UHGV virus genome: UHGV-1789045
Direction: 5' to 3' (one strand)
Origin: a virus
Length of the DNA stretch: 12,500 nt
Below the pieces are notes generated by a model, which was not told the origin of the DNA, ran no database searches, and worked only from the letters and a program-made list of their open reading frames with translations. The translations under genes were made by a program, and so were the position numbers. Positions 1,447 through 5,900 of this stretch are shown in pieces; the first letter of the stretch is position 1, and every line of letters starts with the position of its first letter.

Positions 1447-1926
1447 TTAAATTGCGTGAATAGCGTGACGAGGGAAGGGGAGAGTTACTGGTTCCTCGTC
1501 TGGGTAGATAGGTTTGTTATGTTTGTGCCACTCGACATGACATGACTTGCAGAGCCACATCACATCGGTTGGTTTGCTGTAGTCGCAGTGGTGCGCCTGT
1601 GGTTTACATTCTGATCCGCAGCACTCACATTGTGGTGGTCGGATTAGCTTACCGTCGCGCAAAAAATTACCCACAATGATGTGGGCTTTTCTTTTCCATG
1701 GGTTGCTCTGAATGAACCGCTTTTTGGCTGCGTTACACCGTTCTCTTCCGCGTTCCGATGATTGATATTCTCTCCTTGCTGATACTCGATGTGGCAATCC
1801 AGCGCGTTCTTTGTCGTATTCAGCCAGGCAAGCCCGGCAAGCGGCAGTTAATCCATCTCTGGATGCTCTTCTGATTTGAAAGTCCCTTTCTTCCTTCTGT
1901 TGATGGCATCTTGAGCAGATTTTCAT
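1447..1926 (-). CDS. HNH-family endonuclease with N-terminal Cys-rich zinc-binding region
   Basis: 159-aa ORF. N-terminal CSRCHQQK...CRAC pairs, then CECCGSECKPQAHHCDYSKPTDVMWLCKSCHVEWH, which fits the HNH nuclease signature (His-His ... Asn/Trp ... Cys-x2-Cys-His ... His). Confidence 0.65.
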   Translation of the reverse strand: MKICSRCHQQKEERDFQIRRASRDGLTAACRACLAEYDKERAGLPHRVSARREYQSSERGRERCNAAKKRFIQSNPWKRKAHIIVGNFLRDGKLIRPPQCECCGSECKPQAHHCDYSKPTDVMWLCKSCHVEWHKHNKPIYPDEEPVTLPFPRHAIHAI

Positions 1927-2409: not shown

Positions 2410-3117
2410 TTATGCCGCCTGTTTTAGTTCGTTAACTCTGATGTTCATTACCTGAACGCATTTAGCCTGCGCCTCCTCGTTGCCAGCCATTAATTGCCAG
2501 TCACGCTGATAACGCTCGATGAGTTTTTTCTTGTCAGTTTCTGTTGACGCATAATCGCTGAAGTCTTTCAGGATTTGTTCGCAGTCAACCGATGGAGATT
2601 TCTGGTTGGTATTTTCTGGTGATGGTTTGTTATCTGATGCTGGGATTGCCCATCCCGGAAGCGATGGAGGGAGCCAGTAAAATCCTGTTCCATCTTTCAG
2701 TTTTGCCCTGTGCCATCCCTGCTTTTTATCGAGAGATGTTTGTGCGAAACCTTCCTCAAGGTTATACAGATACCGACCGATTCCCCATTGAACGGCAGCA
2801 CGCTTCATTGCACCGGAACGACCACCTTTGACGGCTTCTACCTGCGTGTTTTCAGCAGCATCCCATTTGGTTACCCATTCGGAATCAATCTTGATTGATA
2901 TGCCGCATTCAACTCCGCCGTTGTTGGGAATATCGCGGTATTCATTGCGCCATCCTGCTTTGCCGCAAACATCGTCCAGGCGTTTCATGATTGCCCGGTT
3001 CGTGACATAAGCCAGCACCATAGCCCACACTTTGCCATCGCGTGTTTTACCGCTTTGCTGTATTCGCCATTCGATATCTTCAGGGCTGAATGGCTCATCG
3101 AATTTGTTCAAATCCAT
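2410..3117 (-). CDS. single-strand annealing recombinase, Rad52-family core with Erf-like C-terminal tail
   Basis: 235-aa ORF immediately upstream of ssb. The segment GKVWAMVLAYVTNRAIMKRLDDVCGKAGWRNEY fits the Rad52/Sak-type SSAP motif. The C-terminal tail ...YASTETDKKKLIERYQRDWQLMAGNEEAQAKCVQVMNIRVNELKQAA resembles my recollection of the P22 Erf C-terminus (memory only). Confidence 0.7.
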   Translation of the reverse strand: MDLNKFDEPFSPEDIEWRIQQSGKTRDGKVWAMVLAYVTNRAIMKRLDDVCGKAGWRNEYRDIPNNGGVECGISIKIDSEWVTKWDAAENTQVEAVKGGRSGAMKRAAVQWGIGRYLYNLEEGFAQTSLDKKQGWHRAKLKDGTGFYWLPPSLPGWAIPASDNKPSPENTNQKSPSVDCEQILKDFSDYASTETDKKKLIERYQRDWQLMAGNEEAQAKCVQVMNIRVNELKQAA

Positions 3118-3125
3118 AATTCACC

Positions 3126-3296
3126 TCAGAATGGACACGGCCCAAGGAAATAACGCTGATTTAATACTTCGACTCGGGACAAATTAAGGCATACCCGCAT
3201 TCCTTCGCGGTCACCATTATGGCGATACCAGAGAGCTTTCTGCGTGTACATGCGTCTCTGTAACTTGCTCTCCTTCACTGTGGTTGCAAGTGACAT
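3126..3296 (-). CDS. small hypothetical protein, 56 aa
   Basis: ATG at 3296..3294 preceded by a strong RBS (AAGGAG, 6-nt spacer). Translation MSLATTVKESKLQRRMYTQKALWYRHNGDREGMRVCLNLSRVEVLNQRYFLGPCPF. Overlaps the next ORF (3220..3375) in another frame, so only one of the two may be real. Confidence 0.3.
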   Translation of the reverse strand: MSLATTVKESKLQRRMYTQKALWYRHNGDREGMRVCLNLSRVEVLNQRYFLGPCPF

Positions 3297-3375
3297 GAAT
3301 ATCTCCTTCGTTACCGATTAAATCTTTCATCTGACGAATGAATTCTTCGTCTGACCAGTTATCTGTAAAACTCAT
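3220..3375 (-). CDS. small hypothetical acidic protein, 51 aa
   Basis: ATG 3375..3373 overlaps the stop of the Kil-like ORF in an ATGA arrangement, suggesting translational coupling. Translation MSFTDNWSDEEFIRQMKDLIGNEGDIHVTCNHSEGEQVTETHVHAESSLVSP. Weak RBS; overlaps ORF 3126..3296. Confidence 0.3.
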
Positions 3376-3494
3376 TTCCTGCGATACCACGGAAGGTTGA
3401 TGGCTGATTTCATCGCTTTATTTGCTTCAAGCCACATTTTTGAATCACCAATAAATCTGGCTATTACTGCTTTGTTTTGTGCTGCACGAAGCAT
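3372..3494 (-). CDS. Kil-like small protein, 40 aa (host-killing / FtsZ-inhibitor candidate)
   Basis: ATG 3494..3492. Translation MLRAAQNKAVIARFIGDSKMWLEANKAMKSAINLPWYRRK. Sits between cIII and the recombination genes, where lambda has kil. The FIGDxKM segment resembles what I recall of lambda Kil (memory only). No clear Shine-Dalgarno. Confidence 0.35.
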   Translation of the reverse strand: MLRAAQNKAVIARFIGDSKMWLEANKAMKSAINLPWYRRK

Positions 3495-3508
3495 CTGGTG
3501 ATTGATGG

Positions 3509-3643
3509 CTATTTCATTGCGCATAACGCCTCCAGTTGTTTCTTTGCTGCTCTGATTAATTGTTTAACTCGGCGTGATAATTCAGATTCGTGCGGGTAGA
3601 AAGCGGACATGACGCCGCTACCCGCGAACTGAAAGTGCATCAT
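3509..3643 (-). CDS. cIII: cIII-like protease-inhibitor peptide, 44 aa
   Basis: The track ORF 3509..3748 runs through a terminator hairpin. The internal start at 3643 has GGAG 6 nt upstream. Product MMHFQFAGSGVMSAFYPHESELSRRVKQLIRAAKKQLEALCAMK has a central amphipathic helix like lambda CIII (PSESLLERITRKLR...). Position after N and tL1 matches lambda. Confidence 0.55.
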   Translation of the reverse strand: MMHFQFAGSGVMSAFYPHESELSRRVKQLIRAAKKQLEALCAMK

Positions 3644-3708
3644 GGGTAACTCCTTCTGTTTGATTGCATAACGAAAACGCCTCAATTGAAGCGTTATTGG
3701 TATGCATA

Positions 3709-3733
3709 TAAAAAAGCCCTCACATTGGAGGGC
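3709..3733 (-). terminator. intrinsic terminator of the leftward operon (tL1-like)
   Basis: Plus strand aaaaaa-GCCCTC-acattg-GAGGGC (stem 3716-3721 / 3728-3733). On the minus strand this is a 6-bp GC-rich hairpin followed by a U-run. Lies between the 83-aa gene and the cIII-like gene. Confidence 0.5.
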
Positions 3734-3869
3734 AAAGAAGATTTCCAATAATCAGAACAAGTCGGCTCCTGTTTAGTTACGAGCGACATTGCTCCGTGTA
3801 TTCACTCGTTGGAATGAATACACAGTGCAGTGTTTATTCTTTTTTTTATGCCAAAAATAAAGGCCACTA

Positions 3870-4121
3870 TCAGGCAGCTTTGTTGTAAATGTTGCAGGTA
3901 TCAAGTAAGTAATTAGATGGAGCGCCATAAATTATGAATTCATCGTTTGTCGGGTCCATCTCCATCTCTTGGCCTATTGCCATTCTTGCGTCAGTGTCAT
4001 CAGAGGCGAAGCATAAAACAGCCCACGCACCCATTGTTTTAAACAGAACTGCAATTGGCTGTGGTTTTACTGAATTTGCGTTAGCGCGAAAATCACAAAT
4101 CGCACTTTCATGAAACTCCAT
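3870..4121 (-). CDS. hypothetical protein, 83 aa, immediately downstream of N
   Basis: Minus-strand ORF with RBS GAGGTGAG upstream of ATG 4121; starts 8 nt after the N stop. Product MEFHESAICDFRANANSVKPQPIAVLFKTMGAWAVLCF...NIYNKAA. Occupies the slot lambda uses for ral/sieB. Confidence 0.6.
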   Translation of the reverse strand: MEFHESAICDFRANANSVKPQPIAVLFKTMGAWAVLCFASDDTDARMAIGQEMEMDPTNDEFIIYGAPSNYLLDTCNIYNKAA

Positions 4122-4129
4122 ATCTCACC

Positions 4130-4429
4130 TCAAATAAGTGGTTTGCTGCCTAATTTCATTTTCTGGCGACCAACACAAGTCACACCCATTTCACTGCGTG
4201 GCTTGCGGTAGTAAATACGGTTCTGTTTACGCTCGACTTCTTCTGCCTTCTTGCAGCGAAGGCTTCCGAGTGATGCTGCTTTATCTGCTCTGACGCAACC
4301 AGAGAGCTTTAGCGCAATTTTTCGCGCCAGTCGCTGCTCTTGCATTGCCTGTTCACGTTGAGCCTGTCTGCGTGCTCTGCGGCGATTTCTGGCGTTATCG
4401 TCAGCCAGATATGTAATGACTACTGTCAT
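4130..4429 (-). CDS. N: N-type transcription antitermination protein
   Basis: 99-aa ORF with GGAGG RBS. N-terminal arginine-rich motif DNARNRRRARRQAQREQ, as in lambda N and P22 gp24, the boxB RNA-binding peptide. Located downstream of pL and nutL. Confidence 0.8.
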   Translation of the reverse strand: MTVVITYLADDNARNRRRARRQAQREQAMQEQRLARKIALKLSGCVRADKAASLGSLRCKKAEEVERKQNRIYYRKPRSEMGVTCVGRQKMKLGSKPLI

Positions 4430-4623: not shown

Positions 4624-4652
4624 AGAATACTGTAGGTATTTTATTGTGTAAA
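4624..4652 (-). promoter_or_regulatory. pL early-left promoter (candidate)
   Basis: Minus-strand -35 TTTACA (4652-4647), 17-bp spacer, -10 TATTCT (4629-4624). Both hexamers overlap operators OL1/OL2. Same -10 hexamer as the candidate pR. Confidence 0.5.
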
Positions 4653-4796: not shown

Positions 4797-5165
4797 TTAG
4801 TCAGCGAAGGTTAAGACGAGAATTACCTTAATGATGTCTGCTACAACAGACACGGCCATAGATAAACCAAAGACGATCCAAGCCACAGTGATGTCTTCAC
4901 TACCATCGTATAGAGTTCCGTAATCACTGGTGTAAGGCGTAAATGTCGCGCCTTGATACAATAGGTATAAGCTTGATCCATAGAGGATAAATGCAGATAT
5001 CCCTTGTATTGCTATGATCACCAGAATCATGAAACGAGCTGATCTATGCGCCCAAGCCTGGCTTATTTTTTCTGATAGAGATTTCGCAATAAAAGCATGC
5101 GCTAAGCCGTAAATTGTCGAGATTGCCAACATCCCAAAAAAGCTTGCTATAGCGGTTCCAACCAT
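4797..5165 (-). CDS. small polytopic membrane protein (3 predicted TM helices), co-transcribed with cI; candidate superinfection-exclusion / abortive-infection protein
   Basis: 122-aa ORF starting 18 nt after the cI stop on the same strand. Three hydrophobic stretches (approx. residues 4-26, 46-70, 95-119). Sits where lambda has rexAB. Confidence 0.7.
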   Translation of the reverse strand: MVGTAIASFFGMLAISTIYGLAHAFIAKSLSEKISQAWAHRSARFMILVIIAIQGISAFILYGSSLYLLYQGATFTPYTSDYGTLYDGSEDITVAWIVFGLSMAVSVVADIIKVILVLTFAD

Positions 5166-5183: not shown

Positions 5184-5900
5184 TCAAACCAGTCTGAGTT
5201 TTGTCTCAATTGCAACGCCTATAATCTTGCAGTTTCCATTGATTGGCACGAGAGGCCATGCAGGATTAAGTCCCTTGAGGTATTTATTTCCGCCGTCGAT
5301 TATCAGCTTCTTGAATGTTGCTTCGTTAGAGTCAGAAAGTTTTGCTATGACCAAGCTGCCGTTGATCGCCTCCCTTCCGGTATCGAAAAGAACGAATGTT
5401 CCCTCTGGAATGCTTAACCCAACCGGTGCCGTCATTGAATCACCTTCCACTTTAAGCCAGAACGCATTACCTTGAATATGCGCGTCAGACTCAAGCCAAA
5501 CATCTATGTCTTTAATGGTGTATGGTTCGCATGCTTCACACCACGAGCCAGCCTGGATACTGCTTAACACCGGATACCTCTTTCCTGCTCTGTATTCCCC
5601 TGCATACCTTACGTTGGCATCGCTCTTAAGGCTTTCTGCCTGTTCTGCAACCTTGGCAGCAATTGACTGGCTAAAATCAGCAATTGAGACTTGCAACAAT
5701 CGTGCAAAACCAGATGCGACCTCAACGTTTAGCGCGTTTCTGCCATTAAGATAATGCCCTACCGCTCCTTGGGTGATACCCAGTTCATCAGCGATTGAGT
5801 ATTGGGTTATTCCCAATTCTTTCTTTTTTGACTCATACAAAGCCTTAAGCCGCTTAGCGTCTTCGAGCTGTTCTGTCGTCAGTGATTTTTTATTTTCCAT
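5184..5900 (-). CDS. cI: CI-type prophage repressor (lambda-cI-like HTH N-domain + LexA/S24 autocleavage C-domain)
   Basis: 238 aa. N-terminus KKSLTTEQLEDAKRLKALYESKKKELGITQYSIADELGITQGAVGHYLNGRNALN closely parallels lambda CI. C-domain FWLKVEGDSMTAPVGLSIPEGTFVLFD...ATFKKLIIDGGNKYLKGLNPAWP...NGNCKIIGVAIETKL matches the P22 C2 / lambda CI S24 peptidase fold, with Ser in GDSM and Lys in FKKL. Confidence 0.95.
   Translation of the reverse strand: MENKKSLTTEQLEDAKRLKALYESKKKELGITQYSIADELGITQGAVGHYLNGRNALNVEVASGFARLLQVSIADFSQSIAAKVAEQAESLKSDANVRYAGEYRAGKRYPVLSSIQAGSWCEACEPYTIKDIDVWLESDAHIQGNAFWLKVEGDSMTAPVGLSIPEGTFVLFDTGREAINGSLVIAKLSDSNEATFKKLIIDGGNKYLKGLNPAWPLVPINGNCKIIGVAIETKLRLV

What the first reader, a model, noticed from the sequence alone, without database searches (positions are those of the whole stretch)
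3870..4121. Unknown 83-aa gene immediately downstream of N and before the first terminator
The gene is translationally close to N (8-nt gap, good RBS) and lies upstream of the tL1-like terminator, so it is expressed even without antitermination. In lambda this slot encodes Ral (restriction alleviation) and SieB (exclusion). The product has no motif I can place, which makes it a candidate immediate-early anti-restriction or host-takeover factor.
Basis: inference. Interest (0 to 1): 0.4.

Follow-up and report, generated by a model that had tools for sequence, protein, structure and literature searches.

The report
Uncharacterised early phage gene after N
This is a real, conserved 83-amino-acid gene that lambda-like phages, including Shiga-toxin phages, carry right behind their early regulator N; its function is unknown, and the one published screen that tested it reported no anti-restriction effect.

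Summary
An 83-codon ORF lies at 3870-4121 on the minus strand, 8 nt after the N stop codon. Its Shine-Dalgarno sequence (GAGGTGA) overlaps that stop, and no recognisable terminator separates it from pL.

The gene is real: dN/dS is 0.05-0.24 against diverged copies. It is PHROG 2471 (unknown function), equivalent to VT2-Sakai H0090 and HK106 gp42. It occurs in 403 of 5,426 complete E. coli genomes and is always annotated as hypothetical. It has no Pfam, NCBIfam, PADLOC or PDB relative. An exhaustive search of 1.8 billion protein representatives found only its own narrow enterobacterial family. Two AlphaFold runs failed (pLDDT 52).

In 93 of 93 loci it follows an N or Nun gene, across seven allele classes. 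It is an exchangeable cassette: its last 17 nt and the 165 nt that follow match those of lambda ral. Phages with the same N allele carry ral or other genes in this slot.

Silas et al. (2023) already tested this protein as "orf60". It is not among their reported hits, and in the EcoKI/lambda experiment only ArdA, Ral and Ocr were logged as hits.

My best guess is an immediate-early inhibitor of an unidentified host or prophage defence. That is inference, not demonstration. The gene is already known and of modest interest.

The parts
3870..4121 (-). 83-aa CDS (T83). It is acidic (pI 4.2, net charge -7.4). The predicted secondary structure is alpha-beta-beta-alpha-(beta)-alpha. It belongs to PHROG 2471.
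4122..4132 (-). 5' junction. The N stop codon TGA overlaps the Shine-Dalgarno sequence GAGGTGA, with 3 nt to the ATG. The motif TTGAGGTGAKAT-ATGGA is conserved in most fetched loci whatever gene lies upstream.
4130..4429 (-). Antiterminator N, 99 aa, with the arginine-rich stretch NARNRRRARRQAQ. It forms the immediate-early unit together with T83.
3852..3886 (-). 3' cassette junction shared with ral: AACAAAGCTGCCTGA plus GTGGCCTTTATTTTTGG. It explains the common C-terminus ...NKAA of T83 and Ral; orf184 ends ...DKAA.
3863..3878 (-). Hairpin overlapping the stop codon, followed by a T-run. It is degenerate here: two G-to-A changes, about -6 kcal/mol. In most relatives it is a 9-bp stem (-13.9 kcal/mol) plus a U-run. 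Diverged lineages keep a hairpin plus U-run with different sequences.
3796..3823 (-). Perfect 12-bp hairpin (GTGTATTCATTC/GAGTGAATACAC, -15.7 kcal/mol) in the untranslated spacer. It is conserved in lambda downstream of ral. Its role is unknown.
3716..3733 (-). Intrinsic terminator, GCCCTCCAATGTGAGGGC followed by six T. It is homologous to lambda 33,931-33,952 and is the first strong terminator after pL in this window.
3676..3695 (-). Second terminator-like hairpin just upstream of cIII. It is homologous to lambda 33,493-33,512.
3509..3643 (-). cIII (44 aa), the next gene of the pL operon, read after antitermination.
4624..4652 (-). Candidate pL promoter (TTTACA, 17-nt spacer, TATTCT). This is a consensus match only.

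Best explanation
T83 is a protein-coding accessory cassette in the hypervariable N-to-cIII region of the lambdoid pL operon, the region Silas et al. label 'Ral'.

**Expression (inferred).** On infection or induction, pL transcripts should read nutL, N and T83 as one immediate-early message, with no recognisable terminator before the gene. Ribosomes finishing N stop directly on the T83 Shine-Dalgarno sequence. The protein should therefore be made with N, before any N-dependent gene. In most relatives an intrinsic terminator overlaps the T83 stop codon and closes this unit. In this window that hairpin is degenerate, and the unit ends at the terminator at 3716-3733.

**Function (most likely, inferred).** The product is a small, acidic, cytoplasmic alpha/beta protein. 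It most likely binds and inhibits a host-encoded or resident-prophage-encoded protein that would otherwise block early development of temperate lambdoid phages. That would make it a counter-defence or host-modulating factor. Its target is not type I EcoKI restriction.

**Shown versus inferred.**
- Shown: the coding status, the position, the junctions, the cassette exchange and the lack of homologues.
- Inferred: the timing of expression and the inhibitor function.

The confidence of 0.4 refers to the counter-defence function. The anatomy and cassette status I hold at about 0.9.
For: **Coding.** dN/dS is 0.05-0.24. The match to PHROG 2471 is full-length.

**Coupling to N.** The gap is 8 nt and the Shine-Dalgarno sequence overlaps the N stop codon. 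42 of 90 loci have the same 8-nt gap. All 93 loci have an N or Nun homologue upstream on the same strand, in seven allele classes; the distance is 100 nt or less in 64 of them.

**No terminator before the gene.** Terminator-like hairpins sit at or after the stop codon. Four lineages keep this hairpin with different sequences.

**Cassette behaviour.**
- The same N allele, at 97% identity or more, is followed by T83, ral, a 149-aa membrane protein or a 74-aa ORF in different phages.
- The 3' junction is shared with lambda ral.
- The downstream neighbours are very diverse.

**Accessory region.** Silas et al. picked this gene as one of 200 accessory genes, and a region labelled 'Ral' is their second-highest-scoring accessory region.

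**Protein properties.** pI 4.2, net charge -7.4, and 0 membrane segments in the Silas table. The gene is dispensable: among 335 phage records matching the N-to-cIII stretch, only 56 carry it.
Against: - There is no functional evidence for any activity.
- In the Silas screen (about 20 E. coli hosts; phages T2-T7, P1vir and lambda vir), orf60 is not among the genes reported with a host-sensitising or conditionally lethal phenotype.
- No structural or sequence similarity to any known anti-defence protein was found.
- The structure models are unreliable (pLDDT 52).
- Position in an accessory hotspot is guilt by association only.
- Rho-dependent termination upstream of the gene cannot be excluded by sequence.
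Confidence: 0.4

Rival explanations
1. T83 is a functional analogue of Ral. It would alleviate type I restriction-modification, either by boosting methylation or by blocking the enzyme.
For: T83 takes the ral position and shares the ral 3' junction and downstream sequence. T83 and ral never co-occur: 0 of 94 loci carry Ral within 3 kb, although Ral is in 117 phage records. The protein is acidic and expressed early.
Against: There is no match to Pfam Ral, ArdA or Ocr families at E up to 1. In the pooled Silas experiment with MG1655 (EcoKI) and lambda vir, only ardA, ral and ocr were logged as hits, and orf60 is not in their phenotype list. The mutual exclusion follows mechanically from the shared junction, because two cassettes with the same ends would recombine one out. 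Only 14.5% of residues are Asp or Glu, which from memory is well below DNA mimics such as Ocr.
Confidence: 0.08
2. T83 tunes the phage's own early regulatory circuit. For example, it might protect N, CII or another labile early protein from host proteases such as Lon or FtsH, as CIII does for CII. Alternatively it might modulate antitermination.
For: T83 is invariably linked to N or Nun, and often translationally coupled to it, across seven allele classes. It would be made in step with N. It lies in the same operon segment as cIII.
Against: Most lambdoid phages with the same N alleles lack it. It pairs with N proteins that differ greatly in sequence, and with Nun, which argues against a specific partner. 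It has no similarity to CIII (Pfam).
Confidence: 0.12
3. T83 is a host-takeover factor aimed at a housekeeping process such as division, recombination or nuclease activity, in the manner of Kil, Gam or Abc. It would not target an immune system.
For: The pL operon in this window is full of such genes: kil, abc2, an Erf-like annealing protein and SSB. The protein is small and has no enzymatic motif.
Against: No toxicity or conditional lethality was reported for orf60 when it was induced in E. coli strains. The narrow, patchy distribution is more typical of arms-race genes.
Confidence: 0.12
4. T83 serves competition between phages. It would exclude superinfecting phages or satellites, like SieB, or interact with phage-inducible islands.
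For: Lambda carries sieB in the corresponding interval. HK106, which carries T83, is used as a helper phage for phage-inducible chromosomal islands (titles listed).
Against: The gene lies in the CI-repressed pL operon with no promoter-like site upstream; the only promoter-like match is internal, at 3958-3931, and the count of such matches is no higher than in shuffled sequence. It has no membrane segment. No superinfection-exclusion phenotype is noted for UDP0060 in the Silas log.
Confidence: 0.07
5. The ORF is not functional as a protein. The conserved feature would be an RNA or DNA element such as a linker or terminator, or the ORF would be spurious.
For: Conserved junction sequences and hairpins flank it.
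Against: dN/dS is 0.05-0.24 with saturated dS, and the reading frame is intact in lineages down to 64% DNA identity. The Shine-Dalgarno sequence is conserved. The frame is intact in nearly all of about 90 loci.
Confidence: 0.02

Closest known systems
Hypothetical protein H0090 of VT2-Sakai (Sp5), HK106 gp42 and mEp234 AFM76313.1; PHROG 2471; 'orf60/UDP0060' of Silas et al. 2023
   Same: It is the same protein family, 98-99% identical, and sits in the same position directly after N.
   Different: There is no biological difference. The window copy has S40 where those copies have A40. It also carries the lambda-ral version of the 3' junction, which weakens the hairpin at the stop codon.
Lambda Ral (restriction alleviation protein, Pfam PF11058)
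   Same: Both are small early pL-operon accessory proteins in the same N-to-cIII slot. They share the last five codons (N-K-A-A-stop) and the 165 nt downstream, including the hairpin and terminator.
   Different: There is no sequence similarity beyond the junction. Ral is 66 aa and rich in cysteine, whereas T83 is 83 aa and acidic. Lambda has the sieB interval between N and ral, whereas T83 abuts N. Ral scored in the EcoKI experiment and orf60 is not logged there.
orf184 of Silas et al. (mEp235 AFM76385.1)
   Same: It is another gene of unknown fold from the same accessory region, and it ends in ...DKAA.
   Different: Its sequence is unrelated. It triggers the gop-beta-cII abortive-infection system. 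It is absent from all T83 loci.
T7 Ocr and ArdA (DNA-mimic anti-restriction proteins)
   Same: They are also small, acidic proteins made very early in infection.
   Different: No homology was found. T83 is much less acidic (14.5% Asp plus Glu). No confident fold is available, and no phenotype was reported in the type I restriction screen.

Membership tests
PHROG 2471 (unknown function) | Full-length significant match to the family profile | tested here: met
   E 2.9e-61, residues 1-83 against profile positions 1-83 of 83
Lambdoid N-to-cIII accessory-region cassette (region labelled 'Ral' by Silas et al.) | Lies in the pL operon between N and cIII, on the same strand | tested here: met
   N at 4130-4429, T83 at 3870-4121, cIII at 3509-3643, all on the minus strand. 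An N or Nun homologue is upstream in 93 of 93 loci.
Lambdoid N-to-cIII accessory-region cassette (region labelled 'Ral' by Silas et al.) | Presence or absence, or replacement, between near-identical flanks, with shared junction sequences | tested here: met
   With flanks 97% identical or more, the slot holds T83, ral, a 149-aa membrane protein or a 74-aa ORF. The 3' junction is shared with lambda ral.
Ral (PF11058) | Sequence match to the Ral family | tested here: not met
   No Pfam family matched at E up to 1. Only the last five codons are shared, because of the common junction.
Ral (PF11058) | Alleviates type I restriction | not testable with these tools
   The published pooled screen logs only ardA, ral and ocr as hits with MG1655 and lambda vir. 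orf60 is not among the genes with a phenotype. This is negative but not definitive.
DNA-mimic anti-restriction proteins (Ocr, ArdA) | Homology to the Ocr or ArdA families | tested here: not met
   No hits in Pfam (E up to 1) or in NCBIfam or PDB sequences (E up to 10) other than chance-level ones.
DNA-mimic anti-restriction proteins (Ocr, ArdA) | Very high density of surface negative charge that imitates the DNA backbone | tested here: inconclusive
   pI 4.2 and net charge -7.4, but only 12 of 83 residues are acidic. No reliable 3D model is available.
Moron (autonomously expressed prophage gene) | Own promoter upstream and own terminator downstream, so the gene is expressed from the repressed prophage | tested here: not met
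   There is no promoter-like site between N and the ATG. The only match is internal (3958-3931), and the count is no higher than in shuffled sequence. A terminator is present.
Known anti-phage defence proteins (PADLOC-DB) | Match to any defence-system protein model | tested here: not met
   0 families at E up to 10
SieB-like superinfection exclusion | Membrane protein expressed in the lysogen | tested here: not met
   0 membrane segments (Silas Supp. File 3). The gene is in the pL operon with no promoter of its own.

The most novel reading that the evidence does not exclude
T83 founds a new family, with a new fold, of immediate-early phage inhibitors. It would neutralise an as yet unidentified defence, or a resident-prophage exclusion system, that acts specifically on temperate lambdoid phages, including the Stx2 phage Sp5 of E. 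coli O157:H7. The published screen relied mostly on virulent T phages and so could have missed this.
Probability: 0.3. Interest if true: 0.6.

Novelty: already known. Interest (0 to 1): 0.3.

Why it matters
If T83 is a counter-defence factor, it would mark a defence system that limits the spread of lambdoid and Shiga-toxin phages in E. coli. It would also add a family with no detectable relatives to the anti-defence catalogue.

Two features are useful for annotation whatever the protein does. One is the N-plus-T83 immediate-early unit with a terminator built into the stop codon. The other is the set of shared cassette junctions. Together they show how the N-proximal hotspot swaps genes, and why unrelated proteins there end in ...KAA.

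As it stands, this is a previously annotated hypothetical gene with one negative functional screen.

Tried and rejected
**Homology searches**
- Pfam, NCBIfam and PADLOC scans returned no family.
- A profile search against PDB sequences gave only chance-level hits. The best were a cellulose-binding protein (E 0.055) and the MEKK2 PB1 domain (E 0.1). I rejected both as not significant.
- The word-indexed search of 5.8 billion proteins and the exhaustive HMM search of 1.84 billion representatives found only the family itself. That family amounts to about two clusters at 50% identity, all enterobacterial.
- Three huge repetitive proteins scored through 3-44 summed weak repeat matches (P0017, P0020, P0021). 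I rejected them as artefacts after reading the sequences.

**Structure**
- Two AlphaFold2 runs with alignments of 7 and 8 sequences both gave pLDDT 52, so neither model is usable.
- Foldseek against PDB and BFVD found nothing at E of 0.001 or below. PB1 and T7 Gp2 appear only at chance level.

**RNA**
- Rfam found nothing in the window.

**Literature**
- Searches by accession, phage name and topic found no functional study other than the Silas screen.
- A search to confirm the names of the lambda terminators returned only noise.
- The supplements of the published Nature Communications version of the screen do not mention orf60.

**Junction search**
- An exact-string search for the window's 3' junction in other loci found few copies, because most loci carry a 2-nt variant. 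I replaced it with a variant table.

Full report
**What the window is.** The window is the early-left, immunity and replication region of a lambdoid phage or prophage of Enterobacteriaceae. The leftward pL operon lies on the minus strand.
- Reading leftward from the CI-type repressor (5184-5900), the minus strand carries a 122-aa membrane ORF (4797-5165), a candidate pL promoter (4652-4624) and N (4130-4429).
- The target ORF follows at 3870-4121, then an untranslated spacer with hairpins and terminators.
- Next come cIII (3509-3643), kil (3372-3524), an Erf-like annealing protein (2410-3117), SSB (1936-2409), an HNH endonuclease (1447-1926) and abc2 (1140-1433).
- Cro, a CII-like activator and a primase/helicase lie on the plus strand to the right.

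**Check of the observation.** The ORF is real at the stated coordinates, on the minus strand, and encodes 83 aa.
- The N stop codon TGA is at 4130-4132 and the ATG is at 4119-4121.
- The 8 nt between them, together with the stop codon, read TGAGGTGAGAT-ATG. A 7-nt Shine-Dalgarno sequence (GAGGTGA) therefore overlaps the N stop codon.
- A consensus intrinsic terminator lies at 3733-3716 and a second at 3695-3676. No terminator-like site lies between pL and the end of the ORF.
- HK106 annotates the homologue of 3716-3733 as a rho-independent terminator.

**Is it a gene?** Yes.
- It matches PHROG 2471 ('unknown function') end to end (E 2.9e-61).
- Diverged copies were recovered from metagenomic and genomic contigs (70-84% protein identity, 64-85% DNA identity). 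Against them dN/dS is 0.05-0.24, and dS is saturated for the most distant pairs.
- The opposite-strand and out-of-frame ORFs in the interval are therefore spurious.
- The product is 9.2 kDa, with pI 4.2 and net charge about -7.4.
- Both AlphaFold runs predict the same secondary structure: helix 5-15, strands 23-29 and 32-38, helix 42-50, a possible strand near 63-66, and a helix near 70-80. The 3D models are not trustworthy (pLDDT 52).

**Distribution and prior knowledge.**
- The protein is 98.8% identical to VT2-Sakai H0090, HK106 gp42, the mEp234 and HK633 copies, Gally gp31 and many Stx1 and Stx2 phage ORFs. It is 74% identical to ORFs in two Salmonella P22-like phages.
- It occurs in 56 of 50,697 phage records and in 403 of 5,426 complete E. 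coli genomes.
- The exact sequence is found on at least 1,000 contigs. It is named 'hypothetical protein' everywhere.
- Beyond this narrow family there is nothing. Pfam, NCBIfam and PADLOC returned no family. PDB sequence matches were at chance level.
- An exhaustive HMM search of 1.84 billion cluster representatives found only the family itself and three repetitive giants. I read those sequences and rejected them as summed-repeat artefacts.
- Foldseek with the poor models gave nothing at E of 0.001 or below.

**Context is the informative part.** I fetched 93 loci that carry the gene.
- All 93 have an N or Nun homologue upstream on the same strand. These fall into seven allele classes: lambda-like, the window type, Sakai type, three others and HK022 Nun-like.
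- The gene starts within 100 nt of N or Nun in 64 loci, within 100-600 nt in 25, and within 600-824 nt in 4. The 8-nt gap seen here is the commonest arrangement, in 42 loci.
- In contrast, the downstream neighbour is highly variable. It can be a 98-aa P22_Y8K6-like protein, Ea10, cIII, 121-aa or 149-aa membrane proteins, a 322-aa protein and others.
- Phages whose N and cIII flanks are 97% identical or more to the window carry something else after N. CUS-3 has ral, HF4s has a 149-aa membrane protein, and ECP1 has a 74-aa ORF. Gally has T83 plus the 149-aa protein.

T83 is therefore one exchangeable cassette of the N-proximal accessory hotspot.

**Junctions.**
- The 5' boundary is the ribosome-binding site itself. 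The motif TTGAGGTGAKAT-ATGGA is conserved in most loci whatever precedes it. It is often preceded by a non-coding remnant of a 21-type or lambda-type N 3' end. CUS-3 keeps this remnant, including ATGGA, upstream of ral.
- The 3' boundary lies inside the last codons. Window 3705-3886 aligns with lambda 33,920-34,103 at 96.7% identity. The last 17 nt of T83 (…AAC AAA GCT GCC TGA) are thus the last 17 nt of lambda ral.
- Everything from there to the terminator is the lambda ral-to-ea10 spacer. This explains why Ral (…NNKAA) and T83 (…YNKAA) share a C-terminus, and orf184 of Silas et al. ends similarly (…VDKAA).
- Relative to lambda, the window has T83 in place of the interval from the N stop to the ral stop (sieB, orf28, ral), and it lacks ea10.
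The 'tL1-like' terminator, however, is the homologue of the lambda terminator between ral and ea10. From memory that terminator is called tL2a, and I could not confirm the name with the tools.

**A terminator built into the stop codon.**
- In about 75 loci, including VT2-Sakai, the sequence AAGGCUGCC-UGAU-GGUGGCCUU followed by UAUUUUU forms a 9-bp hairpin (-13.9 kcal/mol) with the stop codon in its loop.
- Three diverged lineages (L003, L006, L008) have different sequences, and even different stop codons, but keep a hairpin plus a U-run at the same place. That is covariation-type support for a real terminator or 3'-stabilising hairpin closing an N-plus-T83 immediate-early unit.
- The window carries the lambda-ral version of the junction, with two G-to-A changes that largely destroy the stem (about -6 kcal/mol). 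Here the first strong terminator is at 3716-3733.
- Either way, the inference that T83 does not need N-mediated antitermination is reasonable. Rho-dependent termination cannot be judged from sequence, although tight translational coupling would oppose it.

**Functional evidence from the literature.** Silas et al. (bioRxiv 10.1101/2023.04.06.535777) chose 200 accessory genes from variable regions of enterobacterial phages and expressed them in E. coli reference strains.
- Their Supplementary File 3 lists AFM76313.1 of mEp234 as UDP0060. It is identical to the window protein except for S40A. The entry has no comment and 0 membrane segments.
- UDP numbers equal orf numbers: UDP0087 is Ral (orf87), UDP0116 is abc1 and UDP0184 is orf184.
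- orf60 appears nowhere in the text. It is not in the list of genes that gave any phenotype, which reads orf7, 24, 48, 63, 92, 98, 116, 126, 143, 145, 148 and 184, plus controls. It is also not mentioned in the published counter-defence paper (PMC12373910).
- Their log for MG1655 (EcoKI) with lambda vir notes 'ardA, ral, ocr are hits' in all three replicates.
- A region labelled 'Ral' is their second-highest-scoring accessory region.

This is direct, though not definitive, evidence against type I restriction alleviation. The assay was pooled, expression was not verified per gene, and the phages were mostly virulent. It is also evidence against general toxicity.

**Mutual exclusion with ral.** None of 94 T83 loci carries Ral or orf184 within 3 kb, although Ral is in 117 phage records. 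This could mean functional redundancy. It is also the expected mechanical result of two cassettes sharing the same 3' junction, since direct repeats would delete one of them. I give it little weight.

**Interpretation.**
- Shown: T83 is a conserved protein-coding cassette, tightly linked and probably translationally coupled to N. It lies upstream of the first terminator, is freely exchanged with ral and other accessory genes, and has no detectable homologues.
- Inferred: it is made with N as an immediate-early product. It acts as a small protein inhibitor of a host or resident-prophage factor that threatens early development of temperate lambdoid phages. I put this at about 0.4.
- Rivals: a role in the phage's own circuit, such as protease protection in the manner of CIII (0.12); takeover of a housekeeping function (0.12); Ral-like type I alleviation (0.08); inter-phage exclusion (0.07); a non-coding element or spurious ORF (0.02). 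The remainder is 'something else'.

**Novelty and score.** The gene has been annotated since the VT2-Sakai genome, belongs to a PHROG, and has already been picked and screened as a candidate accessory gene. It is already known as an uncharacterised ORF. The stop-codon terminator and the junction analysis are small additions. Interest is 0.3. It is a reasonable but unproven anti-defence candidate present in the Stx2 phage Sp5 (VT2-Sakai) of O157:H7, with one negative screen behind it.

Noticed in passing
window 3796-3823 (-): A perfect 12-bp hairpin (GTGTATTCATTC-CAAC-GAGTGAATACAC, -15.7 kcal/mol) lies in the untranslated spacer between the gene and the terminator. The spacer as a whole folds far better than shuffled sequence (z = -5.9). 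The same hairpin is present in lambda downstream of ral. It might be an RNase III site or an mRNA-stability element, but no Rfam family matches.
   Followed up: partly
window 3852-3886 and 4117-4132; L012 2139-2171 and 2423-2435; L014 4204-4222 and 4724-4742: Cassettes of the N-proximal hotspot are bounded by short shared linkers that extend into coding sequence. The first codons are often ATG GAA TTT and the last are GCT GCC TGA. Gally carries the 3' linker twice, flanking a 149-aa gene, so the window looks like Gally with that gene deleted. CUS-3 keeps the T83 ribosome-binding site and ATGGA as a remnant upstream of ral.
   Followed up: partly
window 4797-5165 (-): A 122-aa ORF with several hydrophobic segments lies between cI and the candidate pL promoter, which is the position of rexA/rexB in lambda. 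It belongs to PHROG 6534 (unknown function) and is a candidate prophage-expressed exclusion or defence gene.
   Followed up: no
window 1447-1926 (-): A 159-aa HNH-type endonuclease (phrog_2340). Its N-terminal Cys-rich 70 residues also match a 'Lar-like restriction alleviation protein' PHROG (phrog_5558, E 7.5e-07).
   Followed up: no
window 4130-4429 (-): This N allele matches Pfam N_peptide only below the curated threshold (20.2 bits against a cut-off of 27.9) but matches phrog_271 strongly. The DNA encoding its C-terminal stretch (…KMKLGSKPLI) survives as a non-coding remnant upstream of T83 in phages whose N ends earlier, such as VT2-Sakai.
   Followed up: partly
L024 and three related viral loci (upstream of the gene): In a few loci the upstream gene is an HK022 Nun-like protein rather than N. 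From memory, Nun is expressed from the prophage. If so, T83 could be expressed in those lysogens, which would be a different regulatory setting from the window.
   Followed up: no
P0017 (3126 aa), P0020, P0021: Giant tandem-repeat proteins reached E 3e-50 to 8e-04 against the 83-position profile, purely by summing 3-44 weak repeat matches. This is a caution for profile searches with short queries.
   Followed up: yes
window 3126-3296 and 3217-3390 (-): Two small ORFs that overlap in different frames both match PHROGs annotated 'recombinase' (phrog_1723 and phrog_2123), as in Sf6 gp29/gp30 and HK106 gp38/gp39. The overlap is conserved in annotated relatives.
   Followed up: no
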